This document shows positions 1 through 21,695 of a stretch of 64,000 nucleotides of DNA, piece after piece. The DNA comes from Escherichia coli (GTDB lineage Bacteria; Pseudomonadota; Gammaproteobacteria; Enterobacterales; Enterobacteriaceae), in the NCBI RefSeq assembly GCF_041886205.1, contig NZ_CP169029.1; one strand, 5' to 3'. The notes beneath the pieces are model-generated. The model was not told the origin of the DNA and did no database searches. It saw only the letters and a list, made by a program, of their open reading frames with translations. The stretch's first letter is position 1; every line of letters begins with the position of its first letter. The translations under genes and the position numbers were made by a program.

Positions 1-238
1 CATGTTCATGGCAATGATCAGGTAGCTATAAGTACGTTTGAAATGAACATGTTTGATTTCCGTCGTGATAATATAGGAAAAAGTATGCAATCCGGGTTAG
101 ATAAAAAAACTGCTCCTGCAGGAATCATAATGTAATAAATATTAGATATTTTTATATTAGAGGTGAGGAGATGGCGTCACCTCTAATATTTTCGCTGATT
201 GTATTTAGCATCAAATAATAAAGGTACAATTAATTTAA

Positions 239-1930: not shown

Positions 1931-1976
1931 ACTCATAATCGCTTGGTCGCTGGTTCAAGTCCAGCAGGGGCCACCA
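1931..1976 (+). other. Partial tRNA-Ile(CAU) gene, 3' half only (anticodon loop to CCA); att-site-like remnant
   Basis: ACTCATAATCGCTTGGTCGCTGGTTCAAGTCCAGCAGGGGCCACCA matches the ileX/ileY-type tRNA from the anticodon loop onward; upstream bases do not match the 5' half. Confidence 0.65.
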
Positions 1977-2731: not shown

Positions 2732-4081
2732 ATGTTAGTTAGTAAAAGCAACGAATTTAACACTAGCGCAGTTTTGGCTAGCAGGAATTATAATGAAAAC
2801 AATTCTTCCAACCCCATGGGGCTACTAGCTTATAGTATTTTAAATTTAATTTGTAAGGAAGCTGCCTCAGGGACGTACAACGGTGCTATTGAAATTTTAC
2901 AAAAAATGATGTCTGAATGTAAATATCAAGAAGGCAACGCCTTTGTCATTATGGGATCTGGAGAACAATTAAAACGTATTAAATATGATGTTGATGAAAA
3001 TAACTTAAAAGTATTCAACGTACACTTTAATAATAATGAAGAGTTAGTTACTGATGGTGAGCCTGACGTAGTATGTTTAAGCAAGCAGGAGTGGGAAAAT
3101 CTTCTCATTAAATTAAAACCGGAGATTAAAGAAAATGTGTTTTCTGAAAATAACAAATCATCGAGAGAAAATAATGTTGATCAGTATGTTCAATCCGCTA
3201 AAAGAAATGAACAGGCCCTTTTCGATAATATAATAAAAAGTGATTTTCATGTTGCTTCACTTCAGCCAGGTAGTACGCGTAGTGTTATTTCAGAAACGCC
3301 ACGAAATGTCTGTATGGAACCACGTAATTCCTATGAAACCAAAATAGATGAGATTTCATCTTTGTCAGAGTCAAAGGAACACTCCATAGATATTCAAGAA
3401 AAAACAGATGCGTTTGTGAATGAGTTCAAGGGGATATTATTTGATAAAAATGGAACGTCTTCAGAGTTTCTACTTAATTTTTATGAATGTTGCTATGAGT
3501 TTTTACCAAGAGCGCAGCCTCAGGATAAAATCGATAGCTATAATTCAGCACTGCAAGCTTTTTCCATCTTTTGTTCATCTACGTTGACACATAATAATAT
3601 AGGCTTTGATTTCAAATTATTTCCAGAAGTCAAGCTGTCTAGAGAACATCTTGAAACGGTATTCAAATACAAAAATGGCGATGATGTCCGGGAGATAGCC
3701 AAAATTAACATTACTCTCCAAAAAGAAGAGGGTGGTTTATATAATTTACGTGGATTAGATTTTAAGGGATGCTTCTTTTCTGGACAGAACTTCAGTAACT
3801 ATGATATTCAATATGTGAACTGGGGAACGTCATTGTTTGATCTTGATACTCCATGTATTTTTAATGCGCCTGCTTACAACAAGAGTAATGAAAAATCATT
3901 AGAACGCGTCAGCGAAAACGGTTTAAGTGGAGTCTTGTCTGATCGTAATAAAAAAATAAAACTCATCACGGGCGTGGCACCATTCGATGATATTTTATTT
4001 ATGGATGACGACTTTGATGATAGTTCCTCTGAGGATGATCCCGTTGAGAATAGTCCTGTTGTGACTAGTCCCCTTGTATAA
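2732..4081 (+). CDS. AT-rich hypothetical protein, ypjC-like, with pentapeptide-repeat-like segment near C-terminus
   Basis: 449-aa ORF, low GC, Asn/Ser-rich; segment NLRGLDFKGCFFSGQNFSNYDIQYVNW resembles pentapeptide repeats; position matches ypjC of K-12. Confidence 0.55.
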   Translation: MLVSKSNEFNTSAVLASRNYNENNSSNPMGLLAYSILNLICKEAASGTYNGAIEILQKMMSECKYQEGNAFVIMGSGEQLKRIKYDVDENNLKVFNVHFNNNEELVTDGEPDVVCLSKQEWENLLIKLKPEIKENVFSENNKSSRENNVDQYVQSAKRNEQALFDNIIKSDFHVASLQPGSTRSVISETPRNVCMEPRNSYETKIDEISSLSESKEHSIDIQEKTDAFVNEFKGILFDKNGTSSEFLLNFYECCYEFLPRAQPQDKIDSYNSALQAFSIFCSSTLTHNNIGFDFKLFPEVKLSREHLETVFKYKNGDDVREIAKINITLQKEEGGLYNLRGLDFKGCFFSGQNFSNYDIQYVNWGTSLFDLDTPCIFNAPAYNKSNEKSLERVSENGLSGVLSDRNKKIKLITGVAPFDDILFMDDDFDDSSSEDDPVENSPVVTSPLV

Positions 4082-4389
4082 AGTTCTAAAAGCAGTTTTC
4101 AATGATAAATAAATGGCTATTTTTACGAAGAGATAATAACGTAGATTGAAACAATATGTATTATTGATTGAGTAAACGGGATTATTATTCACACTACATC
4201 CATTTTAGTGTCACTACCAAAGAAAAAGGGGCTACGTTTTCATGTAACCCCTTGATTTATTTGGTGGGCTGGCAGTGACTGAATTGGTGCTGTAATTGGT
4301 TGAAATATTTCATCTAATGTCTGGTTTAACTTTCCTTAGCTGCCTGAAAGTTTTTTGATCTCACCCAGCAATAACAGCGTTACGGTGCA

Positions 4390-4680
4390 CCACGACTGAC
4401 TGAAGAACTGCGTGCTCAGGGTTACCACTTCAACGTAAAACCGTGGCAGGAGGTCCGGACTGAAAAAACTGCTCAGGACATTATCGGCAGGGTACGCACT
4501 GGTAGTCTGTAAACTGAACCGACTGGGGCGCAGTATGTGGCATCTTGTCGTGCTGTTGGAGGAGCTGTGCGAACGTGGTATTAACTTTCGTGCTCTGGCC
4601 CAATCTATATTTGCCCAACAATGGGGGGACGGAAGCTGTAAAAGTAAAACAATCTGCGATCTCAGAGTTATTGTGTGATT
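4390..4680 (+). pseudogene. pinH: Serine invertase (Pin/Hin family) fragment, pinH-like pseudogene
   Basis: Translation KLNRLGRSMWHLVVLLEELCERGINFRALAQSI matches the resolvase/invertase catalytic-domain core; frameshifted upstream, no intact N-terminus or HTH. Confidence 0.7.
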
Positions 4681-5007
4681 TTTATGTGAGCAGAAGATAT
4701 TCATCAGAAACGATTATGTAAATCATTTTATTTTGCCGACTGCCTGATTGTCGAAAGAAAAGAATACGCCCGGGTTTCCTGAATAGATTGACTTTTTTAT
4801 CCAACCACACTTCAGCGCACTGCGTTTAAAAAATGCCTCATTCTTATGCGGAATATCATCATTTCATCATGATGTCTTTGATGAGCGGTGAACACAATAC
4901 ACTTGCGCTGTCTCTTCAGGATGAATCCCCTGGTCTGGTGCCTGTGGGCTGATGTTGCAGCAAAGCTAAGGTCGCTTAAACGCTACTCAGTATTCACTTT
5001 TCAGAGG

Positions 5008-8000
5008 ATGAAATTTATGAACAGGACCAGTCCCTATTATTTTCGCCGCTCAGTACTTTCCTTATTGATATCTGCCCTGATATATGCTCCGCCCGGGATG
5101 GCGGCCTTTACTACTAATGTTATTGGTGTGGTAAATGATGAGACTGTAGATGGCAACCAACGAGTAGATGAACGAGGTACAACAAATAACACTCATATTA
5201 TCAACCATGGCCAGCAGAGTGTTTATGGCGGAGTATCTAATGGAAGTATTATTGAATCGGGTGGATATCAAGATGTTGGAAGGAATAACAATTATATGGG
5301 GCAGTCTAATAATACAACCATTAACGGAGGAAGACAGACAATTCATGACGGGGGCATTTCCACCGGTACGATAATCGACAGTGGCAATCAGGACGTTTAT
5401 ACAGGTGGTATCAGCAATGGAACGACAATTAAGGGTGGTAATTCACACATAAGTGGGGGGACTGCGAATGGAACAATCATTGATGGTGGCAGCCAACGAG
5501 TAACAACGCAGGGGCATGTTGACAGTACAACGATAAATAAGTCTGGCTCTCAGGACATCACGCAAGGAAGTCTGGCGACGAACACAATCATAAATGGTGG
5601 ACGACAGTATGTTGAACAGAGCACAGTAGGAACAACCACCATTAAAAATGGCGGTGAGCAAAGAGTATATGAAAGCCATGCGCTGGACACGACGATTGAA
5701 GGTGGAACTCAGTCTCTGAATAATAAGTCAACGGCAAAAAATACTCAGATCTATTCTGGTGGTACGCAAATTGTTGATAACACCAGCACCTCGGATGTTA
5801 TTGAAGTTTATTCCGGTGGCGTGCTTGATGTTAGTGGTGGTACGGCAACAAATGTTACCCAGCACGATGGTGCAATTTTAAAAACAAACACTAACGGTAC
5901 GACGGTGAACGGTACGAATAGTGAAGGTGCATTCTCCATCCACAATCACGTGGCAGACAATGTGTTGCTGGAAAACGGTGGTCATTTAGACATAAACGCA
6001 TATGGTTCGGCAAACAAGACTATTATCAAAGATAAAGGAACAATGTCAGTTTTAACCAATGCTAAAGCTGATGCGACCCGAATAGATAACGGCGGGGTAA
6101 TGGATGTTGCCGGAAACGCGACCAATACCATAATTAATGGTGGCACACAGAATATTAATAATTATGGCATAGCCACGGGAACCAATATCAACAGCGGAAC
6201 GCAAAATATCAAGAGCGGCGGGAAAGCTGACACGACAATTATATCCTCCGGGAGCCGGCAGGTTGTTGAGAAAGATGGTACGGCAACTGGCAGCAATATT
6301 AGCGCCGGAGGCTCGCTGATTGTCTATACCGGCGGTATTGCACATGGGGTTAACCAGGAGACGGGCAGTGCTTTAGTTGCCAACACGGGTGCAGGGACTG
6401 ATATCGAAGGATACAACAAGCTCTCTCACTTCACTATTACCGGAGGGGAGGCTAATTATGTTGTGCTGGAAAATACCGGCGAACTGACGGTAGTGGCTAA
6501 AACCTCGGCGAAAAATACTACCATTGATACTGGCGGTAAGCTGATTGTCCAGAAGGAGGCTAAAACAGATAGCACCAGACTTAATAATGGCGGCGTTCTG
6601 GAGGTTCAGGACGGTGGTGAGGCTAAGCATGTTGAGCAACAATCCGGCGGCGCATTAATTGCTTCCACGACCTCCGGAACACTTATCGAAGGAACCAACA
6701 GTTATGGTGATGCTTTCTACATCAGGAATTCAGAAGCTAAAAATGTAGTGCTGGAAAACGCTGGCTCATTAACAGTCGTCACTGGTTCCCGGGCAGTTGA
6801 TACGATTATTAATGCCAATGGCAAAATGGATGTTTATGGAAAAGATGTTGGCACTGTACTTAATAGTGCTGGCACCCAAACAATATATGCCAGTGCCACT
6901 TCTGATAAAGCAAATATCAAAGGTGGCAAGCAAACGGTATATGGTTTAGCCACTGAAGCAAATATCGAAAGTGGTGAACAAATTGTTGATGGTGGGTCAA
7001 CAGAGAAAACACACATCAATGGTGGCACGCAAATCGTTCAGAATTATGGTAAGGCAATCAATACCGATATCGTCTCTGGCCTACAACAAATTATGGCAAA
7101 CGGGACAGCGGAAGGTTCCATTATTAATGGGGGTTCACAGGTAGTTAATGAGGGCGGTCTGGCTGAAAACTCGGTGCTTAATGACGGCGGCACACTCGAT
7201 GTGCGGGAGAAAGGCAGCGCAACGGGGATACAGCAGAGTAGCCAGGGCGCTTTGGTTGCAACCACCAGGGCGACGCGGGTCACAGGAACACGCGCGGATG
7301 GCGTCGCGTTCAGCATCGAGCAGGGTGCGGCGAACAATATCCTGCTGGCAAATGGCGGCGTGTTAACCGTGGAGTCAGACACCTCTTCTGACAAAACACA
7401 GGTCAATATGGGCGGACGGGAGATCGTCAAAACAAAAGCCACTGCGACAGGCACGACGCTCACCGGCGGTGAACAAATTGTCGAGGGTGTGGCGAATGAG
7501 ACAACAATTAACGACGGCGGAATACAAACAGTTTCAGCTAACGGAGAGGCAATAAAAACAAAGATCAATGAAGGCGGTACGCTGACAGTCAACGATAATG
7601 GCAAAGCGACAGATATCGTCCAGAACAGCGGTGCCGCTCTCCAGACGAGCACGGCTAACGGTATTGAAATCAGCGGTACTCACCAGTACGGTACTTTTTC
7701 CATTTCCGGCAATTTAGCGACCAATATGTTGCTGGAAAATGGCGGTAATTTATTGGTATTAGCAGGTACCGAAGCTCGCGACTCCACGGTTGGCAAGGGT
7801 GGGGCAATGCAAAACCTGGGTCAGGACTCCGCCACAAAGGTTAACTCTGGCGGGCAATATACCCTTGGGCGGTCAAAAGATGAGTTTCAGGCTCTGGCCC
7901 GGGCAGAAGATCTCCAGGTCGCTGGCGGTACGGCAATCGTCTACGCAGGTACGCTGGCGGATGCATCGGTCAGTGGCGCGACAGGAAGCCTGTCGTTAAT

Positions 8001-9597
8001 GACGCCACGGGATAATGTTACGCCAGTTAAACTCGAAGGGGCGGTCCGGATTACCGATAGCGCGACATTGACTCTGGGAAATGGCGTCGATACCACGCTT
8101 GCCGACCTGACGGCTGCCAGCCGGGGCAGTGTCTGGCTTAACAGCAATAATTCCTGTGCAGGTACCAGCAACTGCGAATATAGAGTAAACAGTTTGCTAC
8201 TCAACGACGGTGATGTTTATTTGTCAGCACAAACAGCAGCGCCTGCCACAACTAACGGTATCTACAATACGCTGACAACCAATGAACTTTCCGGTAGCGG
8301 TAATTTCTACCTGCATACCAACGTTGCAGGCTCCCGGGGCGATCAACTGGTCGTCAACAACAACGCCACTGGTAATTTTAAAATCTTTGTTCAGGATACC
8401 GGCGTCAGCCCACAGTCTGACGACGCGATGACGCTGGTGAAAACAGGGGGAGGGGATGCTTCGTTTACGCTGGGCAATACCGGCGGTTTCGTTGATCTTG
8501 GGACCTATGAGTATGTCCTGAAAAGTGACGGCAACAGCAACTGGAACCTGACCAATGATGTCAAACCCAACCCGGACCCCATCCCAAATCCAAAGCCAGA
8601 CCCAAAACCCGATCCAAAGCCAGACCCAAATCCAAAACCAGACCCTACTCCCGATCCAACGCCGACACCCGTTCCGGAGAAACGCATTACGCCTTCTACG
8701 GCAGCCGTACTCAATATGGCAGCAACATTACCGTTGGTATTTGATGCTGAGCTAAACAGTATTCGCGAGCGGTTGAACATAATGAAAGCGAGTCCACACA
8801 ACAATAATGTCTGGGGGGCGACGTATAACACCCGTAATAATGTCACCACCGATGCGGGTGCCGGGTTTGAGCAGACGCTGACCGGAATGACAGTGGGGAT
8901 CGACAGCCGTAATGATATTCCTGAAGGAATTACCACGCTAGGCGCTTTTATGGGCTATTCCCATTCACATATCGGTTTTGATCGCGGAGGACATGGCAGT
9001 GTGGGCAGTTATTCTCTGGGCGGCTATGCCAGTTGGGAACATGAAAGTGGTTTCTATCTGGACGGTGTCGTGAAGCTGAACCGTTTTAAAAGTAACGTAG
9101 CAGGTAAAATGAGCAGCGGTGGAGCCGCCAATGGCAGTTACCACAGCAACGGGCTGGGCGGTCACATTGAAACCGGGATGCGATTTACCGATGGTAACTG
9201 GAACCTGACGCCGTATGCATCGTTAACGGGGTTCACCGCTGATAACCCCGAATATCATTTATCCAATGGCATGGAATCGAAATCAGTCGATACCCGCAGT
9301 ATATATCGTGAACTGGGTGCAACGCTGAGTTACAACATGCGTCTGGGGAACGGTATGGAAGTTGAGCCGTGGCTGAAGGCGGCTGTGCGCAAAGAATTTG
9401 TCGATGATAACCGGGTGAAGGTGAATAATGACGGTAATTTCGTCAATGATTTGTCGGGCAGACGTGGAATATACCAGGCAGGTATTAAAGCCTCATTCAG
9501 TAGTACGTTAAGCGGGCATCTCGGGGTGGGGTATAGCCATGGTGCCGGTGTGGAATCACCGTGGAACGCGGTGGCTGGTGTGAACTGGTCGTTCTGA
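5008..9597 (+). CDS. ypjA: Large adhesin-like autotransporter (ypjA-like); start assigned to the signal-peptide Met, ORF opens at 4888
   Basis: Signal peptide (MKFMNRTSPYYFRRSVLSLLISALIYAPPGMAA), long passenger of about 19-residue Gly/Thr/Asn-rich repeats, Pro-Asp-Lys linker, C-terminal beta-barrel ending VNWSF. Confidence 0.85.
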   Translation: MKFMNRTSPYYFRRSVLSLLISALIYAPPGMAAFTTNVIGVVNDETVDGNQRVDERGTTNNTHIINHGQQSVYGGVSNGSIIESGGYQDVGRNNNYMGQSNNTTINGGRQTIHDGGISTGTIIDSGNQDVYTGGISNGTTIKGGNSHISGGTANGTIIDGGSQRVTTQGHVDSTTINKSGSQDITQGSLATNTIINGGRQYVEQSTVGTTTIKNGGEQRVYESHALDTTIEGGTQSLNNKSTAKNTQIYSGGTQIVDNTSTSDVIEVYSGGVLDVSGGTATNVTQHDGAILKTNTNGTTVNGTNSEGAFSIHNHVADNVLLENGGHLDINAYGSANKTIIKDKGTMSVLTNAKADATRIDNGGVMDVAGNATNTIINGGTQNINNYGIATGTNINSGTQNIKSGGKADTTIISSGSRQVVEKDGTATGSNISAGGSLIVYTGGIAHGVNQETGSALVANTGAGTDIEGYNKLSHFTITGGEANYVVLENTGELTVVAKTSAKNTTIDTGGKLIVQKEAKTDSTRLNNGGVLEVQDGGEAKHVEQQSGGALIASTTSGTLIEGTNSYGDAFYIRNSEAKNVVLENAGSLTVVTGSRAVDTIINANGKMDVYGKDVGTVLNSAGTQTIYASATSDKANIKGGKQTVYGLATEANIESGEQIVDGGSTEKTHINGGTQIVQNYGKAINTDIVSGLQQIMANGTAEGSIINGGSQVVNEGGLAENSVLNDGGTLDVREKGSATGIQQSSQGALVATTRATRVTGTRADGVAFSIEQGAANNILLANGGVLTVESDTSSDKTQVNMGGREIVKTKATATGTTLTGGEQIVEGVANETTINDGGIQTVSANGEAIKTKINEGGTLTVNDNGKATDIVQNSGAALQTSTANGIEISGTHQYGTFSISGNLATNMLLENGGNLLVLAGTEARDSTVGKGGAMQNLGQDSATKVNSGGQYTLGRSKDEFQALARAEDLQVAGGTAIVYAGTLADASVSGATGSLSLMTPRDNVTPVKLEGAVRITDSATLTLGNGVDTTLADLTAASRGSVWLNSNNSCAGTSNCEYRVNSLLLNDGDVYLSAQTAAPATTNGIYNTLTTNELSGSGNFYLHTNVAGSRGDQLVVNNNATGNFKIFVQDTGVSPQSDDAMTLVKTGGGDASFTLGNTGGFVDLGTYEYVLKSDGNSNWNLTNDVKPNPDPIPNPKPDPKPDPKPDPNPKPDPTPDPTPTPVPEKRITPSTAAVLNMAATLPLVFDAELNSIRERLNIMKASPHNNNVWGATYNTRNNVTTDAGAGFEQTLTGMTVGIDSRNDIPEGITTLGAFMGYSHSHIGFDRGGHGSVGSYSLGGYASWEHESGFYLDGVVKLNRFKSNVAGKMSSGGAANGSYHSNGLGGHIETGMRFTDGNWNLTPYASLTGFTADNPEYHLSNGMESKSVDTRSIYRELGATLSYNMRLGNGMEVEPWLKAAVRKEFVDDNRVKVNNDGNFVNDLSGRRGIYQAGIKASFSSTLSGHLGVGYSHGAGVESPWNAVAGVNWSF

Positions 9598-9607
9598 CCA
9601 TCAACGA

Positions 9608-9630
9608 AAAAGCCCACATCTGTGGGCTTT
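9608..9630 (+). terminator. Hairpin downstream of ypjA (AAAGCCCACA-tctg-TGTGGGCTTT)
   Basis: Perfect 10-bp inverted repeat 11 nt after the stop codon; weak U-tract. Confidence 0.4.
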
Positions 9631-9760
9631 CATGTTACCAGGAGCCGCGGCTCTTTTGCGTATCCTGTTTTGTCTCCTCACCGTCTGGTCGGTGTCCTGC
9701 TGAGGCTGCTAACTTCCTGTTTTTGTTGGTGTTGTCCTTACACCGTCCAATCATGATTGG

Positions 9761-9771
9761 GCTGGCGGAGT
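9761..9771. other. Putative distal att core (imperfect repeat of ssrA 3' end)
   Basis: GCTGGCGGAGT resembles GCTGGCGGGAGT at the tmRNA 3' end (window 21340-21351); short and imperfect. Confidence 0.3.
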
Positions 9772-9825
9772 CTGAATAACATTTGCAACATAATGTTTTT
9801 ATTGTTTATTTTCCAATTCAACTTT

Positions 9826-9853
9826 CATTGGTATACCTAAGCGTATACCAATG
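9826..9853. repeat. Inverted repeat CATTGGTATAC-ctaagc-GTATACCAATG; candidate integrase arm-type site
   Basis: Perfect 11-bp arms; near-identical motif recurs at 21199-21223 at the opposite end of the element. Confidence 0.5.
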
Positions 9854-9937
9854 GCGATTTGTTGCAATGATTCCTGTGGTTAAGCGAACTTGTTGTTGAA
9901 TAGCTCACATCAAGAAAAAAACTTTTTTTACGGAAAA

Positions 9938-10030
9938 CTGTTCACACTGTTCACTCGCCATTATTTGTCTTTAATTTCAATGTGATATACGGTGAATAGT
10001 CCGTGAACAGTGAACACTTTACTGTTCACT
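9938..10030. repeat. Cluster of TGTTCAC iterons (P4 ori-like, alpha-binding type)
   Basis: At least five copies of TGTTCAC/GTGAACA in both orientations just downstream of the alpha gene. Confidence 0.6.
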
Positions 10031-10040
10031 TTCCGGGATT

Positions 10041-10070
10041 TCAGGTAAAAAAAGACCGGCTGATGCCGGT
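10041..10070 (-). terminator. Rho-independent terminator downstream of alpha
   Basis: On minus strand GACCGGCATCAGCCGGTC hairpin followed by TTTTTTT. Confidence 0.55.
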
Positions 10071-10079
10071 CCGGGTAGG

Positions 10080-12413
10080 TTATGTCGCGGTGGTTTCGTC
10101 GCACCGGGGCAGCCAGTCGGCGTTGCTTTCCTCCCTGAGCGCAAGGTTCGTCTGCATCCCCTGATTTGTTCGCCGCCTGGCGTAATTCAGCCCGTACTCT
10201 TTCAGCATCGATGACAGCCCTTTGCCGAACATGGTCAGGCTGAGGGTGTTCTTGTAGCCGTGCGCCTCCATGTAAACCAGATAGGCGTGATACAGGTACA
10301 GGCGCGGCTGTCGCGGGATGATATTCGCATTCCCCATGTACATACCGTCAGGCTCGGGCAGCGCCTCCAGATAGCCACAAAAATCGAATGTCGGGTCAGC
10401 GTCGCGCTTGATGCTGAGTGCCTCGTCGGAGTTCTGCTGCGACTGGAGCAGTGTGCGCGCGGTCATCGGGTCGCTGAACGTCTGCATAAGCTGACGCACG
10501 ATGACGGCCAGCTCGCGGGCAATTTTATCTTTCAGCTTCGGGTCACGCTCCTCCGGGGCAATCTGTTCCGGGAAGTGCATTATCACCCGGCGACGCGACA
10601 CGCCGCCGCTGCGGTCGGTGAAGCGCATCGGATTGTTGTTTACGGCCAGTATCACCGCCGGAATATGGGTGGAGTACGCATCGCGGTATTTCGGGTCAAC
10701 CGAGACCGCATCCCCGCCGGTGATGGCCTTGAGTCCTGCCCCGTCACCGCTCCATTTCTCCTGGTCAGGCAGACGTATCAGCGAGAAGCCAATCAGCGCC
10801 GCGCGCTCGCGGGGGGATTCCAGCGTTTCGATAGTCGCTGACGTGGCGTTATCTTCCCCGGCGAGCATGGTCGCTATTTCGGCCAGAATACTTTTCCCGC
10901 TGCCACCGGGACCGGTCACTTCGAGGAAGAGCTGCCAGTCGTAGCGGTTCGCCAGCACCATAAACAGCGCGGCGAGTATCACGTCACGTTTATCGGCACG
11001 CGAACCGGCGGCGCGGTCGAGCCAGCGCCAGAAATTCGGCGCGTGCGTCTCCAGCGTTTCCCCCTCCACCGGCGGGGTGAAATCCACGTCGCACAGGGTG
11101 CGCAGCCAGTGCGTTTTGCTGTGCGGGCTGAATATACCGGTACTGGTATCAAGCACGCCGTTGCGAAAGCCAATCAGCCGCCGTGGCGGGGCATCCTGCT
11201 GCGGAATAATCAGTTTCAGGGTGTCCACCACCGAGGCAATTTTCCCCGACGAAAACGGGGCGCGCAGACGCTGGAACAGCCCGGCCACGTCGCGCGCAAA
11301 GTCTGACGGCGGAATGATTTTCCATATACCGGCTTCATAGCGGGACAGGAGCTGCCCGTTCGCATCCACCGCCAGCGCTTCGCCGTAATGCTCATGCACC
11401 CGCATGGCTTTCTCACTGGTGCTCATGGCGGTAAATTCCGCCTCGCTCATGGTAGAGAAAGGGCTTTCAGCCGGTGGCCGGATGGCGTCATACATGGCTT
11501 TACGCGTGGCCTCCCCACCGTGCTGTGTATACGCATCATTCCAGTCACCGAACACCGGCGGCAGGGCGACCACGCCCTCACAGGACTCTGCGGCCGCAGA
11601 CGCTTTGGTCTGGCCGTCGCCGTTAAGGTCACGGTCGGCGGCAATGACAATCCGGCAGGCCGGGTATTTGTGACGGGCAAGGCTCGCCAGAGAAAGGAGG
11701 TTCACCGACGACAGCGCCACCATGACGGTTTCGCCGGTCAGGTGATGCACGGTGAGCGCGGTCGCGTAGCCCTCCGCTATCCACAGCCGTTTTCCCGCCT
11801 CTTTTTTCCCGTCGAGAATATGACATGTCCCTTTTACCTGCCCCCCTTTCAGGGTGCGCTTGAGACCGTCCGCGTTAATGAGCTGGACGTTAACCAGTGC
11901 GCCGCTATCGTCATACAGCGGGACAACCACATCCCCGGCACGGTACGTCACACCGCCGGTTTTGTGCATGGCCGTCAGTACCTGACATTCCCGGCCGGGA
12001 AAGCCCTTGCGGGTGAGGTAGGCGTTGCCGGTGGCCGGTTGGGTTTTCTCCATCAGTCTGGCGGCCAGCGCGGCCGCCGCTTTGCGGTCGGCCTCCGTTT
12101 CAGCGTCTGCGGCCGCAGTCACCGCCGGGGATACCGGAGGCAGGTTGCCGGTCACGGCGTTCACCTTCCCGGCCGCCTCTGACGGGGTCACGCCGAACAC
12201 TTTCTCAACCAGTTTCAGACCGTCCCCCGCGCCGCACTGGTTACAGAACCACGTCCCGCGTCCCTCCTTATCGTCAAAGCGAAAGCGGTCGGAGCCGCCA
12301 CACACCGGACAGGCCTGATGACGGTTTTTGATGACCGTTACCCCCAGCGCCGGGAGAATGCGCGGCCAGTGGCCGCACGCCTGTTTCACGGTGTCCGTTA
12401 CGTTCATTTTCAT
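10080..12413 (-). CDS. P4 alpha-like primase-helicase (777 aa)
   Basis: N-terminal zinc-binding cysteine pairs (CPVCGG ... CNQCG), central primase region, Walker A (GPGGSGKS) helicase domain; size identical to P4 alpha. Confidence 0.9.
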   Translation of the reverse strand: MKMNVTDTVKQACGHWPRILPALGVTVIKNRHQACPVCGGSDRFRFDDKEGRGTWFCNQCGAGDGLKLVEKVFGVTPSEAAGKVNAVTGNLPPVSPAVTAAADAETEADRKAAAALAARLMEKTQPATGNAYLTRKGFPGRECQVLTAMHKTGGVTYRAGDVVVPLYDDSGALVNVQLINADGLKRTLKGGQVKGTCHILDGKKEAGKRLWIAEGYATALTVHHLTGETVMVALSSVNLLSLASLARHKYPACRIVIAADRDLNGDGQTKASAAAESCEGVVALPPVFGDWNDAYTQHGGEATRKAMYDAIRPPAESPFSTMSEAEFTAMSTSEKAMRVHEHYGEALAVDANGQLLSRYEAGIWKIIPPSDFARDVAGLFQRLRAPFSSGKIASVVDTLKLIIPQQDAPPRRLIGFRNGVLDTSTGIFSPHSKTHWLRTLCDVDFTPPVEGETLETHAPNFWRWLDRAAGSRADKRDVILAALFMVLANRYDWQLFLEVTGPGGSGKSILAEIATMLAGEDNATSATIETLESPRERAALIGFSLIRLPDQEKWSGDGAGLKAITGGDAVSVDPKYRDAYSTHIPAVILAVNNNPMRFTDRSGGVSRRRVIMHFPEQIAPEERDPKLKDKIARELAVIVRQLMQTFSDPMTARTLLQSQQNSDEALSIKRDADPTFDFCGYLEALPEPDGMYMGNANIIPRQPRLYLYHAYLVYMEAHGYKNTLSLTMFGKGLSSMLKEYGLNYARRRTNQGMQTNLALREESNADWLPRCDETTAT

Positions 12414-12424
12414 GGTGTTCTCCC

Positions 12425-12745
12425 TCAGTGCAGCGCCGGTGCGGTGATATGACGGGCGCAGAGTTCATCCATCACGGCCAGCCCGAGAAAGGACAGCGAC
12501 GGCGCGGCCTTGAGTGGTCCGGCTTCCATTAAATCTTCGAGCAGGGCACAGGCAATCTGACGGCCTTTTTCCTCGCCATGCTGGCGCAGGTAGAAGCCCT
12601 CCAGCTCGGTCGCAATGGCGCTTTCCAGCGTACTGAGCGTGAGCTGCGGGTAGCGGTGCTGACGTTCGCACAGGGTCAGCCATGCACAGGCCACGGCGCG
12701 GCGATAGAGCGCGGCGCGTAAGACGGGCGTTAATGGCTTTTTCAT
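12425..12745 (-). CDS. Hypothetical protein (106 aa), satellite left operon
   Basis: ORF abutting the alpha start in the same operon. Confidence 0.45.
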
Positions 12746-13002
12746 ACGTTGCGCTCCCCGGCCAGCCAGCGCTGATTGCAGCGTTCGACCACACCTTCAA
12801 GCCGGGCGGTCATGAGGTAAATCACCGAGGTGAGCTGTAGCTGCTGCGCCGGATTGTGGCGCAAAGAGGTGCAGTCCTGCACCTGCATCAGTTCGCCGAC
12901 GAGCTGGCCGACGTTGCGAAGATGTTCGAGGCATTCGAGGTCTGCCCGGCTGATGGTGGGCTGGTTTATATTCTGCGACCGTTCCGTACTGTTAACAGGC
13001 AT
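12742..13002 (-). CDS. Hypothetical protein (about 86 aa; start at Met with AGGAG upstream)
   Basis: ORF with Shine-Dalgarno-like AGGAG before ATG at 13002; 4-nt overlap with downstream gene. Confidence 0.4.
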
Positions 13003-13073
13003 TATTTCGTCTCCTGAGGACGTGCGTATCCCTGCGCAGATACGCACATTTTATTTTGGGGTGTCGTTTTTAA

Positions 13074-13523
13074 TTACAGATAACGGCGGTAGCTGTTATC
13101 CGGTTTTATTTCCGTTTCCAGCCTGAAATTATTCCGCCATTTATGCGCCACCGGCGCCGGGCGTTTAACCGGGGGAATATCATCAGGATAGTTATCGATA
13201 TTCCGCGCCCGGTATTGCTGTAATGCCGGGTCGGCCGCTATTTCGCGTAATACGGCGTGGCGGTTTTCAGGGTTGCGCTTAAATACATCGGGATGCTCAC
13301 AGGTAAAGTCCCGCAAAAAACGACTGAGCGGAATTTCTGCCATACGGCCACCGGCAATAATACGAATGAGGATGGTGTAGGTGCGCCGGTAAGGGTTCCA
13401 GACCAGCCCCGGACAGCGGTACGGCATATCCCACGGAATACCGTCGGCCAGCACGCCCGACACCACCACATCAGGAAATCCTGTACAGCGATATGTTTCG
13501 CCCGGCTGAGGGAAATCAAACAT
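13074..13523 (-). CDS. P4 orf151-like protein (149 aa)
   Basis: Position and size match P4 orf151 upstream of alpha; GGAGG before ATG. Confidence 0.5.
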   Translation of the reverse strand: MFDFPQPGETYRCTGFPDVVVSGVLADGIPWDMPYRCPGLVWNPYRRTYTILIRIIAGGRMAEIPLSRFLRDFTCEHPDVFKRNPENRHAVLREIAADPALQQYRARNIDNYPDDIPPVKRPAPVAHKWRNNFRLETEIKPDNSYRRYL

Positions 13524-13815
13524 GGTGCTCCCCTCCGTTTCCCGACGTCGTGGCGAGAAAGTCACGGCACAGGCCTTTGGCTTTCAGCTCTTCCAGGACG
13601 TAGCTGACGTCCTCATGGATATAACTAAAAATCTGCGGCAGGTATAGCTGGTGTAAACCGTTCAGCTCACGGCGCAGCAAATCTCCACCGATGAACTGCG
13701 AGACGGCGCTGGCGCGATTGAGTTTATGGTACGCCTCAATGCTGAGGTGTTCCTGCATGGGGTTAAGGTCATCACGACGCGCTGAGATGGTCTGAGGGGT
13801 GTTTTTATTATGCAT
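13516..13815 (-). CDS. Small protein (99 aa), position of P4 epsilon
   Basis: In-frame Met inside a longer ORF; overlaps neighbours by 8 nt; position equivalent to epsilon. Confidence 0.45.
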
Positions 13816-14005
13816 GTGACACCTCCACAACCGGCAGACGGGCGGCAAGGGAAAGCACGTATTCCCGGACAAGGGTGCGGCGGGCGGCCAGCTCGTCACC
13901 GGCCACGGTGCGGAGCATACAGATACGGGGTTTACGGTCTGCACGACGGACGGCGGCAAACACAAAGACAAACTGAGGGTGTGACGGGGTGAGGGTCGTA
14001 GCCAT
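13808..14005 (-). CDS. Small protein (65 aa), position of P4 kil/eta
   Basis: AGGAGG 7 nt upstream of ATG at 14005; overlaps downstream gene start. Confidence 0.35.
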
Positions 14006-14403
14006 AAGGCAACCTCCTTCGAGTAGCAAATTATTGCTATCGCCGGAGTTCTCACGCTCAGTGGCGATAGCCCAGACGGGGGTGAGAATACCGGCCTCGA
14101 AGAATACCGGCCAGCCCGAGGGCTGCCCCGCCTGAGCTACCATTGACATGACAGCATGATATGCGATTGCGGACAGGAGACACAAAGTGACGTCTGCACG
14201 ACGATCCGCACACCACGCCATTATCTGGCGCTCTGTGGCGTTAGTTGCGACACAAAAAAAGACGCATGGCGCGTCTGGTGTCGCCTTCGAGTTACTCGGG
14301 TTCTCACGCCCGGTTACCGATTTTGCGGCAACAGCAAAACTGTACCAGGAAACACACAACGGATGCAAGCCAGAAAAAGGGGCTTTGTGAAATCGGCTCT
14401 GAT

Positions 14404-14670
14404 TCATGCGTCGTATTTCCGGTTGCGGTGCGCGACACGTTCTTCCATCCATGCCGTGATTTCAGACTGTAGCCAGGCGACATTTTTACCCCCGAGGGAA
14501 ACCTGCGCCGGGAAAGCGTTACGGGCGATTAAATCGTAGAGCGTGGAGCGGGACAGGCCGCACTGATGAATGACTTCCGGGAGACGTAAAAAACGTTCCT
14601 GAGTCGGGGCTGAAACCGGCATCGGGTGCGCGGCAGTGGGGGACGGTGGTGCTGATGAAACTGTGTGCAT
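14404..14670 (-). CDS. Vis/AlpA-family transcriptional regulator (start may be internal Met at 14622)
   Basis: [28 protein letters not shown] is an AlpA-type HTH; 88 aa as for P4 Vis; divergent from sid. Confidence 0.7.
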
Positions 14671-14944
14671 AACGCTACCTCGTTAATATCCGCAGAGATC
14701 CGGACGTATCCGTCCGGTATCAGGTAGCGCTCTATTTTGTGAATATTTTTCTTCAATGCAACAGAGGCATGTTGTGTCGTGGAGCAGTTTTGTCTGTTAT
14801 TTAAGCAGCGACCTGAAAATATGAAAAATAATTGGCACATGACGCGCTGAGACGTTCATAAATCACAGTCAATTGATATCGCCTATCAATAGATAAAAAT
14901 ATAATTATTAAAACAATGACTCTCTAAAAGGAGCTTGCCGAAAC

Positions 14945-15050
14945 CAGTGAACAGTAGTGAACAGTTGGTGAACACTTTTCTCTCAACTGTTCACTCTTTA
15001 ATTTATTGTTTTATTTATATTTTTATACTGAGTGAACAGTAGTGAATAGT
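14945..15050. repeat. Second TGTTCAC iteron cluster in the divergent vis/sid control region (crr-like)
   Basis: Six copies of GTGAACA/TGTTCAC in an AT-rich intergenic region about 5 kb from the first cluster. Confidence 0.5.
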
Positions 15051-15218
15051 TATATGTAAAAAAACAAATAGAGTGAGGGGTTTTCCTGCGACCTTTCTCT
15101 GGCCAGCCGGGTTTTTAAGTCCTGTTTGTGCCATGTCTGCGACAACGGCAATGAATCGAGTTGTTGTCTGAGGGACGGCAGAATGGCGTCAGGTTGAAAA
15201 CACAGAGAGAACCCGACG

Positions 15219-16022
15219 ATGAAACCAGATTTGTTTACCGCAGTAATGAAAACCATCGGCAGCACGCAGGATGAGAACATCCGCACGGCCATTGACAGCG
15301 CACTGGATACCCTTAACGAGAAAGCAAACCAGAACGCAGAGGCCACGATAAATAATGCGCTTGAGGCATTCAGCAAGGCCAAATCCGCGCACACGGAAAA
15401 TATGCTGAAACTGAATGATATTGATGCGGCCATTACCCGCAGTGAGAAAGAGCGTCAGAACGCCCTGAATGAAAGTGCCGAAGCGGAACAGAACTGGCGT
15501 ACCCGTTTTCGCGAACTGCGCGGCATGATGACCCCGGAACTGAAAGCCGAACACAGTCAGCGAGTGGCCGGTCGGGAGCTGGCGGAGGAATTCACCGCCC
15601 TGATTGATGAGCTCAACGATGATAAAGCCAGTACCATGCTGGCCGCCTGTACATCAGGAGATAAGTACGTCGGCACGCATTTTACGGTGTTCTCTGCCTA
15701 CTCCCGGAATGAGTGGGCGACCGTGATGAAAGACATCCCTCCCTCACTGGTGCGCGCATTTGCGTTACGTCTGCGTGAACTCGAAATGAAAGGAGAAGAA
15801 CACCCTCACAACGTTCTCATTCAGGAACTGGGGGAGAATGTACTGGCGCAAAGCAGGTACTACACATTCAACATGGCGCAGGAGCCGGTAATTTCAAAAA
15901 TTGGGCTTCACCGTCCGGCACTCACCGGCGTGGATATGAAACTCTATAAAAGCCCGGTTCTCAGAATGGCGCGGGCTAAAGAGCTGGCACAGAAGAAAAA
16001 ATCGCGGGGGGTTAAGCCATGA
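15219..16022 (+). CDS. sid: Sid-like capsid size-determination (external scaffold) protein
   Basis: Similarity to P4 Sid (NWRTRFRELRGMMTPELKAEHSQRVAGRELAEEF); first gene of sid-delta-psu. Confidence 0.75.
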   Translation: MKPDLFTAVMKTIGSTQDENIRTAIDSALDTLNEKANQNAEATINNALEAFSKAKSAHTENMLKLNDIDAAITRSEKERQNALNESAEAEQNWRTRFRELRGMMTPELKAEHSQRVAGRELAEEFTALIDELNDDKASTMLAACTSGDKYVGTHFTVFSAYSRNEWATVMKDIPPSLVRAFALRLRELEMKGEEHPHNVLIQELGENVLAQSRYYTFNMAQEPVISKIGLHRPALTGVDMKLYKSPVLRMARAKELAQKKKSRGVKP

Positions 16023-16261
16023 TGCGCTGTCCGTACTGCAAACAGGCTGCCCATGTCCGTACCAGCCGTTACCTGTCGGATAACGTCAAACAGAGCTACC
16101 TCCAGTGCGTGAATGTCTTTTGCTCCGCAACCTTTCGCACCACCGAGTCTATCGACGAGGTAATACGGCCACCGGCAGAAGAAAAGCCCGAACCGCCGCA
16201 GACAGTACCAGAAACACCGCCCCGAATTCTGGACTGCGCCCGGTCATCGCTGCGCCACTGA
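16019..16261 (+). CDS. Delta/Ogr-type zinc-finger late transcription activator
   Basis: MMRCPYCKQAAHVRTSRYLSDNVKQSYLQCVNVFCSATF with C-x2-C ... C-x4-C pattern typical of P2 Ogr/P4 Delta; 4-nt overlap with sid. Confidence 0.85.
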   Translation: MMRCPYCKQAAHVRTSRYLSDNVKQSYLQCVNVFCSATFRTTESIDEVIRPPAEEKPEPPQTVPETPPRILDCARSSLRH

Positions 16262-16277
16262 TTCAGGAGAAAAGACA

Positions 16278-16853
16278 ATGGCACGAGCACTACTGGAACA
16301 GGCCTTTGAAACCTGTCAGAAGAATAAATCGGACTGGGTGAGCAGCAAGTCAGCACTGGCGCGGGCTGAAATGGCGCTGAAAGAGCTGGAGCTGACCTGC
16401 ACCCGTTATGAACCGGAGGCCGCACAGGCGCTGCGGGATGATATTGACCTGAAAAAATGGGCGGTAAATCAGTCGGCCGGGCAGTACATCCGGTCACATG
16501 AGGCCGTGCAGCGTATCAGTATCCGGCGTCAGCTCCACGCCTTTATGCAGGTAAGCGGCGACGCGCTGGCCGCCGCACTGGCACCGGAATTAATGCATCT
16601 CTGCGAACAACCTGACATTGTCAGAGAACGGGCTCTCGACCGGGCGGCCGCCAGTGTTCGCGAAGCGCTGTCCGTTTATGTAACCCGCGGAGGAAATATT
16701 GATTACGCAGAGGATGATCGCGACATTCTGACAACCATCGGTTTCCGGCCTGACAGAGCATCGAGAGACGACAACCGGGCAAAATATACGCCTGAACAGA
16801 GTCAGATTTTCATGCGCCGACAGGCCGCGCAGACCCGCAAAAAATCCGCATAA
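16278..16853 (+). CDS. psu: Psu-like polarity suppression / capsid decoration protein
   Basis: KWAVNQSAGQYIRSHEAVQRISIRRQL and ALAAALAPEL and DILTTIGFRPD match P4 Psu; 191 aa. Confidence 0.85.
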   Translation: MARALLEQAFETCQKNKSDWVSSKSALARAEMALKELELTCTRYEPEAAQALRDDIDLKKWAVNQSAGQYIRSHEAVQRISIRRQLHAFMQVSGDALAAALAPELMHLCEQPDIVRERALDRAAASVREALSVYVTRGGNIDYAEDDRDILTTIGFRPDRASRDDNRAKYTPEQSQIFMRRQAAQTRKKSA

Positions 16854-17017
16854 AACGCCCCGAAAATACCCGTCTTTTTAATAAAAATAGCCATGCATGC
16901 CTACGCTGCATGGCTTTGCATGCAAAAACCTGAATTTTCCACACCCCGCCGCACCAGCACTGGCGCGGCCTGAGTCCCTTCATGCGCCTGCATTAAAAGT
17001 GCCCCACGAAGCGGGCA

Positions 17018-17036
17018 GGCGTGGCGGGGAGAGCAT
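17018..17036. other. cos-like cohesive-end site
   Basis: GGCGTGGCGGGGAGAGCAT matches 16 of 19 positions of the P2/P4 cohesive end as I recall it; lies after psu as in integrated P4. Confidence 0.45.
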
Positions 17037-17113
17037 TGCGCGCCAAGCGATATATAATTAATTAATGAAGAAGGATAGAATTAACCATATAGCCATAAAA
17101 AAGGATGCGGGTG

Positions 17114-19960: not shown

Positions 19961-21148
19961 TTAATGATTTACTTTATCTCCCCACCAATCCATCAACTCA
20001 ACTCTTTGAAGTAAATAAGTTGAACGGTTGTAAGCTTTTCGAACTTCATTTTTGTCTGAGTGTGCTAATGCTGCTTCAATAACATCAGAATTAAATCCGG
20101 CTTCATTGAGTGCAGTACTTGCGATGGACCGTAACCCGTGAGCAACTAATTTCCCACCATAACCAATACGCTTAAGTGCGGCATTAGCAGTCTGACTATT
20201 CATTGGTTGCTTAGGGTTATTTCTGCTGGGAAAAACATGTTCACGGTGAGCGCTGATTGGTTTCATCACTTCCAGAATATCTAACGCCTGAGGAGATAGT
20301 GGGACTATGTGCTCACGCTTAGCTTTCATCCGTTCGGCAGGAATTGTCCAGAGCTTTGCATCAAGATCGATCTCTGCCCACCGGGTACTGGAAGCCTCAG
20401 AAGGGCGCACAAGGGTCAGGAGTTGCCATTCGATTAGACAGCGAGTCGGAACAGACAGATTTGACATGACTAAAGAACGCATCAGCTTCGGCAATTCTTC
20501 TGGCCGCAACGTCGGCATGTTTTGCTTTTTGGGCTTCTCAAAGGCCATGCCAACACCGGATGCTGGATTGGCATCAATCAGACCAGTGTTTACGGCATAA
20601 ATCATGATTTCGTTAATGCGCTGCACCAGTCGACGTACAGTCTCAAGCGCCCCACGTGCTTTTATTGGCTCAAGGGCTTCAACCAAAGTTCGGGCTTTGA
20701 TTTGCTGAACGGGGATCTCACCGATGGCAGGGAATACATCTTTCTCCAGTGAACGCCAAATGTCTTTTGCGTAATCAGGGGTAACGCTTTTGCTTTTGAG
20801 ATGGAACCAGTTAGCGGCGACCGTTGAAAAAATACTGTCCAGAGCGATTTGCTGCTGTTCCTCTGCAACTTCGGCCTGAATTTGCGGGTCAATTCCGTTG
20901 GCTAACAAGGCAAGGTAATCCGCTCTTAACCCTCGGGCGTCAGCAAGTGAGAGGGCGGGGAAAGCACCTAGCCCCATCATTGTCCGCTGTTTTGTCGCCG
21001 GACGTTGATAACGGAAACGCCAGAGCTTTTTCCCGCTGGTTTTCACTATCAGGAAAAGGCCATCGCCATCATGCAGCGTTAGATCCTTCTCTAACGCTTT
21101 AGCGCGCAGAACTTCGGTGTTGGTCAGGGGGCGTGTTGTCCGTGCCAC
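19961..21148 (-). CDS. int: P4-family integrase (IntA-like) next to ssrA
   Basis: 395 aa; N-terminal LWRFRYQRPATKQRTMMGLGAFPALSLADAR arm-binding-like domain; catalytic C-terminal domain; immediately downstream of tmRNA 3' end. Confidence 0.9.
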   Translation of the reverse strand: MARTTRPLTNTEVLRAKALEKDLTLHDGDGLFLIVKTSGKKLWRFRYQRPATKQRTMMGLGAFPALSLADARGLRADYLALLANGIDPQIQAEVAEEQQQIALDSIFSTVAANWFHLKSKSVTPDYAKDIWRSLEKDVFPAIGEIPVQQIKARTLVEALEPIKARGALETVRRLVQRINEIMIYAVNTGLIDANPASGVGMAFEKPKKQNMPTLRPEELPKLMRSLVMSNLSVPTRCLIEWQLLTLVRPSEASSTRWAEIDLDAKLWTIPAERMKAKREHIVPLSPQALDILEVMKPISAHREHVFPSRNNPKQPMNSQTANAALKRIGYGGKLVAHGLRSIASTALNEAGFNSDVIEAALAHSDKNEVRKAYNRSTYLLQRVELMDWWGDKVNH

Positions 21149-21332: not shown

Positions 21333-21695
21333 TGGTGGAGCTGGCGGGAGTTGAACCCGCGTCCGAAATTCCTACGTCCTCGGTACTACATGCTTAGTCA
21401 GTCTTTACATTCGCTTGCCAGCTGCGGACGGACACGCCACTAACAAACTAGCCTGATTAAGTTTTAACGCTTCAACCCCAGGCAGGGCTTCCACGCGATC
21501 TCTTTTGGGTTTGACCTCTCTTGATCCCCGTCCTAAGAGCGGAGGCTAGGGAGAGAGGGCTCTAAGCAGGTTATTAAGCTGCTAAAGCGTAGTTTTCGTC
21601 GTTTGCGACTATTTTTTGCGGCTTTTTACGAGGCCAACCGCCCCTCGGCATGCACCTTGGGTTTCGCAAATCCCGTCGAATCCAGAATCAGCCCC
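21333..21695 (-). ncRNA. ssrA: tmRNA (SsrA), 363 nt
   Basis: Reverse complement begins GGGGCTGATTCTGGATTCGACGGGATTTGCGAAACC and ends GGTTCAACTCCCGCCAGCTCCACCA; ANDENYALAA tag template region present. Confidence 0.95.

What the first reader, a model, noticed from the sequence alone, without database searches (positions are those of the whole stretch)
9938..10030. Iteron cluster (TGTTCAC) downstream of alpha: probable satellite replication origin
At least five copies of the heptamer TGTTCAC in both orientations are packed into about 90 bp immediately 3' of the alpha gene. In P4 the alpha protein binds repeated TGTTCACC-type octamers at ori, so this is the likely origin of the element.
Basis: partly seen in the sequence, partly recalled or inferred. 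Interest (0 to 1): 0.35.

Follow-up and report, generated by a model that had tools for sequence, protein, structure and literature searches.

The report
P4-type satellite crr replication site
The repeat cluster is real and matches the "crr" site of a P4-like satellite prophage, a helper DNA site that the element's replication protein is expected to bind, while the true replication origin lies 5 kb away; this is an ordinary, well-understood feature.

Summary
There are five exact TGTTCAC copies (9939+, 9948+, 10003-, 10010-, 10023+) and a sixth degenerate one (9992-9998-) within 91 bp. They sit 50 bp downstream of an intact 777-aa alpha primase-helicase (10080-12413, minus strand). No shuffle of the window gave more than 2 copies per 100 bp.

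By sequence, synteny and iteron layout, this cluster is the homologue of P4 crr, the "cis required region for replication". It is not the homologue of P4 ori. That cluster has six iterons in the P4 ori pattern around an 89% AT spacer, the most AT-rich 40-mer of the element.

The window carries one 120-bp crr unit (9914-10035) where P4 has two. Among 48 related loci from many enterobacterial genera, single units are common. Across 38 of these sequences the iteron columns are 93% conserved against 65% for the rest of the unit.

The host element is a complete-looking 11.6-kb P4-like prophage at ssrA (about 9757-21333).

The most likely mechanism is that alpha's winged-helix domain binds crr and ori1, crr acts in cis, and unwinding starts at ori1. 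This is a new member of a known kind, of low interest.

The parts
9914..10035 (.). Single crr unit, the homologue of one P4 120-bp crr direct repeat. This is the flagged feature.
   Evidence: It is 76.8% identical over 163 nt to P4 4468-4631, annotated as the crr repeat plus t-alpha. Both P4 repeats map onto this one unit. No second unit exists anywhere in the window. Conservation across 38 relatives falls from about 65-93% inside the unit to 29% left of 9916.
9939..9945 (+). Iteron 1 (TGTTCAC)
   Evidence: aligned with the P4 type-1 repeat at 4494-4501
9948..9954 (+). Iteron 2 (TGTTCAC)
   Evidence: aligned with the P4 type-1 repeat at 4503-4510
9992..9998 (-). Iteron 3, degenerate (TATTCAC)
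   Evidence: aligned with the annotated P4 type-1 repeat at 4546-4553, which is also GGTGAATA
10003..10009 (-). Iteron 4 (TGTTCAC). The corresponding P4 position is degenerate (GGTGAAGG).
10010..10016 (-). Iteron 5 (TGTTCAC)
   Evidence: aligned with the P4 type-1 repeat at 4564-4571
10023..10029 (+). Iteron 6 (TGTTCAC)
   Evidence: aligned with the P4 type-1 repeat at 4578-4585. The 84-bp distance from iteron 1 to iteron 6 is the same in the window and P4 and recurs in the related loci where both outer iterons are exact.
9915..9929 (.). A7-N-T7 palindrome at the left edge of the crr unit. It is strongly conserved and its role is unknown.
10046..10072 (-). Rho-independent terminator of alpha (t-alpha homologue)
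   Evidence: aligned with the P4 terminator at 4604-4628
10080..12413 (-). alpha: primase, SF3 helicase and C-terminal winged-helix origin-binding domain
   Evidence: 777 aa, 84% identical to P4 alpha. Pfam finds Zn_Ribbon_Prim, Toprim_3, D5_N, DUF5906 and Pox_D5. Residues 671-770 match PDB 1KA8, the P4 alpha C-terminal domain, at E=1.7e-44.
12425..12745 (-). cnr / ORF106 homologue (negative regulator of alpha in P4)
   Evidence: 106 aa, Pfam DUF5375 at E=1e-63. It is collinear with P4 ORF106.
14940..15060 (.). ori1 homologue, the probable true initiation site. Iterons lie at 14947-, 14957-, 14968-, 14988+ and 15032-, with a degenerate copy at 15042-15048-.
   Evidence: 77.1% identical over 164 nt to P4 9311-9475, annotated 'origin of DNA replication' with six type-1 repeats. 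The - - - + [AT] - - pattern matches P4. Iteron columns are 97% conserved in 39 sequences.
14995..15031 (.). AT-rich spacer inside ori1, the candidate unwinding element
   Evidence: 89% AT. The most AT-rich 40-mer of the whole element starts at 14997. The crr spacer at 9955-9991 is 70% AT.
9830..9852 (.). Integrase arm-type repeats (GGTATAC palindrome) on the crr side of the attachment site
   Evidence: The same motif is repeated four times at 21171-21221 next to int.
9757..9779 (.). Probable left end of the element (attL), holding an imperfect copy of the ssrA 3' end
   Evidence: Homology to 18 other P4-like loci starts at 9757-9762. TTGGGCTGGCGGAGTCTGAA resembles TTGGTGGAGCTGGCGGGAGTTGAA at 21331-21355. 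The exact core is not resolved.
16875..17064 (.). cos region homologue
   Evidence: 72.8% identical over 195 nt to the P4 cos junction
19961..21148 (-). Tyrosine integrase
   Evidence: Pfam Arm-DNA-bind_3, Phage_int_M and Phage_integrase
21333..21695 (-). ssrA (tmRNA), the integration target and right boundary

Best explanation
The flagged cluster is the crr site of a P4-like satellite prophage integrated at ssrA. It is a single 120-bp unit with six binding sites (TGTTCAC) for the C-terminal winged-helix domain of the element's own alpha protein, arranged + + [70% AT spacer] - - - +. It lies directly behind the alpha terminator. By analogy with P4, it is not the initiation site. It is a second alpha-binding site that must be on the same molecule as the origin. 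After excision and alpha expression, alpha would occupy both crr (9914-10035) and ori1 (14940-15060, 4.9 kb away on the 11.6-kb circle). The two complexes would cooperate. The 89% AT spacer of ori1 would melt, alpha's helicase would load and its primase would prime bidirectional theta replication. Cnr (12425-12745) would limit this by modulating alpha's DNA binding. Shown here: the identity, position, architecture and purifying conservation of the iterons, and the presence of every partner (alpha, cnr, ori1). Inferred from P4 work: alpha binding, the cis requirement, cooperation between the two sites and the start site.
For: (1) The best and only phage-database match of the flagged region is P4 crr plus t-alpha (76.8% over 163 nt, E=7e-22). 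The second cluster matches P4 ori (77.1% over 164 nt, E=1e-24).
(2) Synteny is exact. The order att-side arm repeats, crr, t-alpha, alpha, cnr ... CI/C4 RNA ... ori, sid, delta, psu, cos ... int is collinear with P4.
(3) Iteron order, orientation and the 84-bp span match each P4 crr repeat.
(4) In 38 distinct sequences (window, P4 and 36 related loci), the 42 iteron columns are 93% conserved, against 65% for the other 78 columns of the unit and 29% outside it. This indicates selection on the sites themselves.
(5) Alpha is intact, and its C-terminal domain matches the solved P4 origin-binding domain 1KA8.
(6) The ori1 homologue, not crr, carries the most AT-rich segment of the element.
(7) Single-unit crr elements are frequent: 15 of 48 loci have one unit adjacent to alpha and nothing else. 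A 96%-identical single unit with a 98%-identical alpha occurs in two other genera, which suggests such elements are mobile.
Against: No experiment here shows alpha binding or a cis requirement. P4 has two crr repeats and this element has one. Whether one repeat suffices is only my uncertain recollection of the 1987 P4 paper plus the comparative frequency. The attL copy of the ssrA end is imperfect, so the prophage may no longer excise.
Confidence: 0.85

Rival explanations
1. The flagged cluster is itself the origin where replication starts. This is the layout in SaPI/PICI-type satellites, where iterons flank an AT-rich segment just 3' of the replicase gene.
For: There are six alpha-type iterons around a moderately AT-rich (70%) spacer directly behind alpha. 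From my own recollection, in P4 crr is also part of a second replicon (oriII = crr plus a site inside alpha), so it is a component of an origin.
Against: It is homologous to P4 crr and not to P4 ori. A separate cluster with the exact P4 ori1 layout and an 89% AT spacer exists at 14940-15060. In P4, initiation was mapped to ori, as recorded by the rep_origin annotation in X51522.
Confidence: 0.07
2. The cluster is a negative copy-number control locus. It would titrate alpha or handcuff ori, like P1 incA or the extra iteron clusters of F and RK2.
For: It is an extra cluster of initiator-binding iterons lying outside the AT-rich origin. The number of units varies between relatives from 0 to 3, as might be expected of a dosage-tuning element.
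Against: [quoted passage not shown] P4 already has a dedicated negative regulator, Cnr, and it is present here.
Confidence: 0.05
3. The cluster is a relic: a chance or decaying repeat with no present function, in a prophage that can no longer excise or replicate.
For: The attL copy of the ssrA end is imperfect. Only one of P4's two crr repeats is present.
Against: Shuffles never approach the observed density. All six sites are kept, and the iteron columns are the best-conserved part of the unit across genera. Alpha, cnr, ori1, the CI RNA, sid, delta, psu, cos and int are all intact, and the element is 11.6 kb, the size of P4.
Confidence: 0.03

Closest known systems
crr (cis replication region / cis required region) of satellite phage P4 (X51522 4291-4590; X05623)
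   Same: It occupies the same position, behind t-alpha and between alpha and the attachment site. It has the same iteron (TGTTCAC), the same order and orientation of sites, and the same 84-bp span. It is 77% identical, lies about 4.9 kb from ori1 (about 4.7 kb in P4), and has a similar alpha (84% identical) and Cnr.
   Different: There is one 120-bp unit instead of two separated by 60 bp. The eighth base of the iteron is mostly T, A or G rather than the C of P4's TGTTCACC. The fourth site is a perfect iteron here but degenerate in P4. The element is integrated at ssrA with a different integrase module.
ori1 of P4 (X51522 type-1 repeats 9310-9413)
   Same: It uses the same iteron and is bound by the same protein in P4. 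A 39-nt stretch of the flagged unit resembles part of the window's own ori (repeat D10).
   Different: The site arrangement differs (- - - + [AT] - -). The spacer is 89% AT against 70%. It lies between the immunity region and sid. The window has its own ori1 homologue at 14940-15060, so the flagged cluster is not it.
R6K gamma-origin iterons acting in cis on the distant alpha and beta origins; more generally, auxiliary iteron clusters of iteron plasmids (from general knowledge)
   Same: An initiator-binding iteron cluster several kb from the start site is required in cis, which suggests initiator-mediated looping.
   Different: The initiator is unrelated (pi/Rep versus a primase-helicase with a winged-helix tail). 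There is no sequence homology. P4-type replication is independent of DnaA, DnaB and DnaG.
SaPI/PICI origins immediately 3' of the pri-rep genes (from general knowledge)
   Same: Iterons in a satellite lie directly downstream of the replicase gene.
   Different: In SaPIs that cluster is the origin itself and has no distant partner. Here the downstream cluster is the accessory half and the origin is elsewhere.

Membership tests
P4 crr | Sequence homology to the P4 120-bp crr repeat | tested here: met
   76.8% over 163 nt, E=7e-22, on features annotated as crr. Both P4 repeats align to window 9909-10040.
P4 crr | Position directly downstream of alpha and its terminator, on the attachment-site side | tested here: met
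   Alpha's stop is at 10080, the terminator at 10072-10046 and the unit at 10035-9914. Arm repeats are at 9830-9852 and the element end is at about 9757.
P4 crr | Type-I iterons in the + + ... - (-) - + arrangement | tested here: met
   All P4-annotated positions are occupied and the iteron 1-6 span is 84 bp, as in P4.
P4 crr | Two 120-bp direct repeats separated by 60 bp | tested here: not met
   There is only one unit in the 64-kb window. This describes phage P4 rather than the family: 15 of 48 relatives have a single adjacent unit and 9 have the P4-type tandem pair.
P4 crr | A partner ori1 with six iterons and an AT-rich segment several kb away on the same element | tested here: met
   Window 14940-15060, 4.9 kb away.
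P4 crr | Bound by the alpha C-terminal winged-helix domain | not testable with these tools
   Only indirect evidence: the domain is present and matches 1KA8 at E=1.7e-44, and the iteron columns are under stronger conservation.
P4 crr | Required in cis for alpha-dependent replication | not testable with these tools
   This needs a plasmid replication assay.
   The flagged cluster matches crr. The ori layout and homology are found at 14940-15060 instead.
P4-like satellite (host element) | Core gene set alpha, alpA/vis-like, sid, delta, psu and int, plus cos and the CI RNA | tested here: met
   Pfam hits for alpha, Phage_AlpA, Ogr_Delta, Psu and the integrase. Rfam C4 RNA at 14060-14147. cos homology. 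The ORF at the sid position (15219-16022) has no Pfam hit and was assigned by position only.

The most novel reading that the evidence does not exclude
P4-like satellites may fall into replication-specificity groups. The alpha winged-helix domain occurs in two sequence types (P4 type ...KMFGLGLP...KRHTKQG, window type ...TMFGKGLS...RRTNQGM). These types track the iteron flavour: TGTTCACC with a degenerate fourth site versus mostly TGTTCACT with a perfect fourth site. This might let co-resident satellites avoid cross-initiation or incompatibility. Separately, the crr repeats may mark a cargo-insertion hotspot: about 19 of 48 relatives carry 0.6-2.7 kb of variable genes between alpha and crr or between two crr units.
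Probability: 0.12. Interest if true: 0.4.

Novelty: new member of a known kind. Interest (0 to 1): 0.15.

Why it matters
The result matters mainly for correct annotation. In P4-like satellites, which occur in a large share of Enterobacterales genomes, the iteron cluster behind alpha should be labelled crr. The origin should be sought between the immunity region and sid. Anyone building a minimal replicon or a P4-based delivery cosmid from such an element needs both sites. The comparative survey adds a modest point: one crr unit is a common natural state, and the crr neighbourhood often holds variable cargo.

Tried and rejected
Chance clustering was rejected by shuffles.

The "ori" identity was rejected by homology and layout.

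A second crr unit was sought by BLAST with both the window unit and the P4 units, and none was found in the window.

Integrase arm sites were considered as an alternative meaning of the repeats. The arm motif is different (GGTATAC, at 9830-9852 and 21171-21221).

A coding role was considered. Only a 53-aa GTG ORF (10003-10164, + strand) runs from the right-hand iterons into the 3' end of alpha, and there are no promoter-like sites. I judged it spurious.

The primary P4 replication literature could not be read: look-ups of PMID 10438819, PMID 8253092, PMC372931 and PMC413647 failed. Full-text searches (errored) gave only passing mentions.

Covariation between the iteron's eighth base and the alpha C-terminal subtype was examined. 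It is confounded by there being essentially two clades, and T and C are mixed at ori in the window-type clade, so it was not pursued.

The exact att core could not be resolved. Only an imperfect copy of the ssrA 3' end was found.

PADLOC gave no hit for the two cargo ORFs.

P4's ori2, a site inside alpha in my recollection, was not tested because I do not have its coordinates.

Full report
**Observation.** Window 9938-10030 contains exact TGTTCAC at 9939(+), 9948(+), 10003(-), 10010(-) and 10023(+). A one-mismatch copy, TATTCAC(C), lies at 9992-9998(-). The whole window has 18 hits against 8.0 +/- 2.7 expected. Ten of these fall in two 90-bp clusters. In 1000 dinucleotide-preserving shuffles of the window, no 100-bp span held more than 2 copies. 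In 5000 shuffles of the local 161 bp the count never exceeded 2. The cluster lies 50 bp beyond the stop codon of a 777-aa minus-strand ORF at 10080-12413. A stem-loop plus T-run terminator (10072->10046, minus strand) sits in between.

**The neighbouring gene.** The ORF is 84% identical over 775 residues to P4 alpha and has the same length. It carries the primase zinc ribbon, Toprim, D5_N/SF3 helicase and Pox_D5 C-terminal domains. Residues 671-770 match PDB 1KA8 at E=1.7e-44. 1KA8 is cited as the origin-binding winged-helix domain of P4 alpha in PMC2777425, ref. 47.

**What the cluster is.**
- A sensitive BLAST of 9800-10100 against 50,697 phage records hits only P4. The match is at 4468-4631 (76.8% over 163 nt, E=7e-22).
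[quoted passage not shown] The older record X05623 calls it 'cis replication region (crr)'.
- The three-way alignment shows every annotated P4 iteron position occupied in the window, with identical order and orientation.
- The distance from the first to the last iteron is 84 bp in the window and in P4, and it recurs in the related loci where both outer iterons are exact.
- P4 has two such 120-bp units separated by 60 bp. Both align to the same window stretch, and a BLAST with all units finds only one copy in the window, at 9914-10035.

**Where the origin is.**
- The motif scan shows a second cluster at 14947(-), 14957(-), 14968(-), 14988(+) and 15032(-), with a degenerate copy at 15042-15048(-).
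- This region matches P4 9311-9475 (77.1% over 164 nt, E=1e-24). That P4 stretch is annotated 'origin of DNA replication' with six type-1 repeats.
- The pattern - - - + [AT-rich] - - is the same as in P4.
- Its spacer, 14995-15031, is 89% AT and contains the most AT-rich 40-mer of the whole element. The crr spacer is 70% AT.

**Context.**
- The element is collinear with P4. Its parts are crr, t-alpha, alpha, cnr (DUF5375, 106 aa), a Derepression-family ORF (PF25738, 13516-14055, at the position of P4 epsilon), C4/CI RNA (14060-14147), isrK, an AlpA-family ORF, ori1, a sid-position ORF, delta (Ogr_Delta), psu, a cos homologue (16875-17064), two cargo ORFs and int.
- It abuts ssrA at 21333-21695.
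- GGTATAC arm-type repeats occur at 9830-9852 and, four times, at 21171-21221.
- Homology to 18 other P4-like loci begins at 9757-9762. An imperfect copy of the ssrA 3' end sits there.
- The element is therefore about 11.6 kb, the size of P4.

**Comparative evidence.**
- A scan of one genome per species with alpha returned 48 loci from Citrobacter, Enterobacter, Kluyvera, Raoultella, Edwardsiella, Mangrovibacter, Kosakonia, Buttiauxella, Rosenbergiella, Hafnia and others.
- Most have a crr unit starting about 55 bp after alpha, and an ori-type cluster about 4.0-5.0 kb before the end of alpha.
- In an alignment of 38 distinct sequences, the 42 iteron columns are 93% conserved. The other 78 columns of the unit are 65% conserved, the terminator 82%, and the region left of 9916 is 29% conserved.
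- At ori the figures are 97% for iteron columns against 69% for the rest.
- The architectures vary:

| crr architecture | Number of loci (of 48) |
|---|---|
| One adjacent unit only | 15 |
| P4-type tandem pair | 9 |
| Adjacent unit plus one or two further units 0.7-2.7 kb away | 12 |
| Units displaced from alpha by 0.7-2.7 kb | 7 |
| No unit detected | 4 |
| Disrupted alpha (L025) | 1 |

- A single-unit element with 98%-identical alpha and a 96%-identical crr is present in two other genera, Tenebrionibacter and Intestinirhabdus. This argues that one unit is compatible with a mobile element. That conclusion is an inference.

**Mechanism.**
- Shown here: alpha-type iterons under purifying selection in a fixed geometry behind alpha, a separate ori1 with a strongly AT-rich core, and intact alpha and cnr.
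- Taken from P4 knowledge, as recorded in GenBank annotation and a statement that crr is essential for replication: crr acts in cis.
- Taken from my own recollection of the work of Flensburg & Calendar 1987, Ziegelin et al. 1993/1995 and Tocchetti et al. 1999, which I could not read here: alpha binds type-I iterons in both ori and crr. Initiation is at ori1, bidirectional, and independent of DnaA, DnaB and DnaG. Cnr modulates alpha binding.
- I therefore propose that the flagged site is the accessory, cis-acting alpha-binding half of a bipartite origin (confidence 0.85).
- The rivals are: the origin proper (0.07), a negative handcuffing or titration locus (0.05), and a relic (0.03).

**Novelty and interest.** The feature is a textbook component of P4 in a new P4-like prophage, so it is a new member of a known kind. 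The survey of P4-like elements in PMC8628076 is gene-centred and does not mention ori, crr or iterons. The tabulation of crr unit number is therefore a small addition, not a surprise. Interest is 0.15.

Noticed in passing
related loci L007-L048, region 3' of alpha (e.g. L008:5206-7708, L019:3582-4855, L010:5652-7550): In about 19 of 48 P4-like loci, 0.6-2.7 kb of highly variable genes lies between t-alpha and crr or between two crr units. Examples are a 710-aa CHAT-domain protein and a 324-aa FRG-domain protein, and many ORFs have no Pfam hit. The crr neighbourhood looks like a cargo hotspot. The window has no such insert.
   Followed up: partly
window 17105-18685 (+) and 18815-19801 (-): Two cargo ORFs lie between cos and int, the classical P4 variable region. 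One is a 526-aa protein with a C-terminal LA2681-like HEPN domain (E=1.5e-35). The other is a 328-aa ORF with no Pfam hit. Neither has a PADLOC hit, so this may be an uncharacterised defence candidate.
   Followed up: partly
window 429-9597: Left of the satellite lies what looks like another island. It holds a 469-aa tyrosine integrase (429-1838, -), a DUF5507/DUF5508 protein (2732-4081, +) and a 1569-aa AIDA/pertactin autotransporter (4888-9597, +). The autotransporter has 10 AIDA repeats and a 12-nt-periodic repeat tract at 8563-8670 whose unit AAGCCAGACCCA would encode K-P-D-P.
   Followed up: partly
window 14060-14147 (-) and 14255-14332 (-): Rfam finds C4 antisense RNA, the family of the P4 CI immunity RNA (74 bits). 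It also finds the Hfq-binding sRNA isrK (68 bits) inside the satellite's immunity region.
   Followed up: no
window alpha residues about 700-760 (10080-10400) and iterons; loci L002-L046: Two sequence types of the alpha winged-helix domain track the iteron flavour. The P4 type goes with TGTTCACC and a degenerate fourth crr site. The window type goes with mostly TGTTCACT and a perfect fourth site. There are essentially only two clades, and the eighth base is mixed at ori, so this is not evidence of co-evolution.
   Followed up: partly
window 9757-9852 and 21171-21355: The attachment-site anatomy includes a GGTATAC arm-type palindrome at 9825-9854 and four copies at 21171-21221. A terminator-like hairpin occurs on both sides (9607-9632 and 21266-21300). 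The copy of the ssrA 3' end at 9757-9779 is imperfect and contains indels. L002, L003 and L011 share the crr-alpha module but lack this arm region, which implies exchange of integration modules at the left edge of crr.
   Followed up: partly
window 15053-15110: A block just right of the ori iterons (AAAAAAACAAA...TTTCCTGCGACCTTTCTCTGGCCAGCCGGG) is as conserved as the iterons across 39 sequences. By position it is presumably the late (sid) promoter and activator site.
   Followed up: no
L005:8494-8843 and L030:8763-9049: In two relatives the crr-side arm region is followed within about 40 bp by sequence homologous to the window's int-side arm region (21140-21312). This is an attP-like junction and suggests tandem satellites at one site.
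   Followed up: no
L025 (Edwardsiella hoshinae) around the 3' end of alpha: The 3' end of alpha is disrupted, with stops in the translated C-terminus. A crr-like unit lies at -286..-170 relative to the end of the match, in addition to one at +44..161.
   Followed up: no
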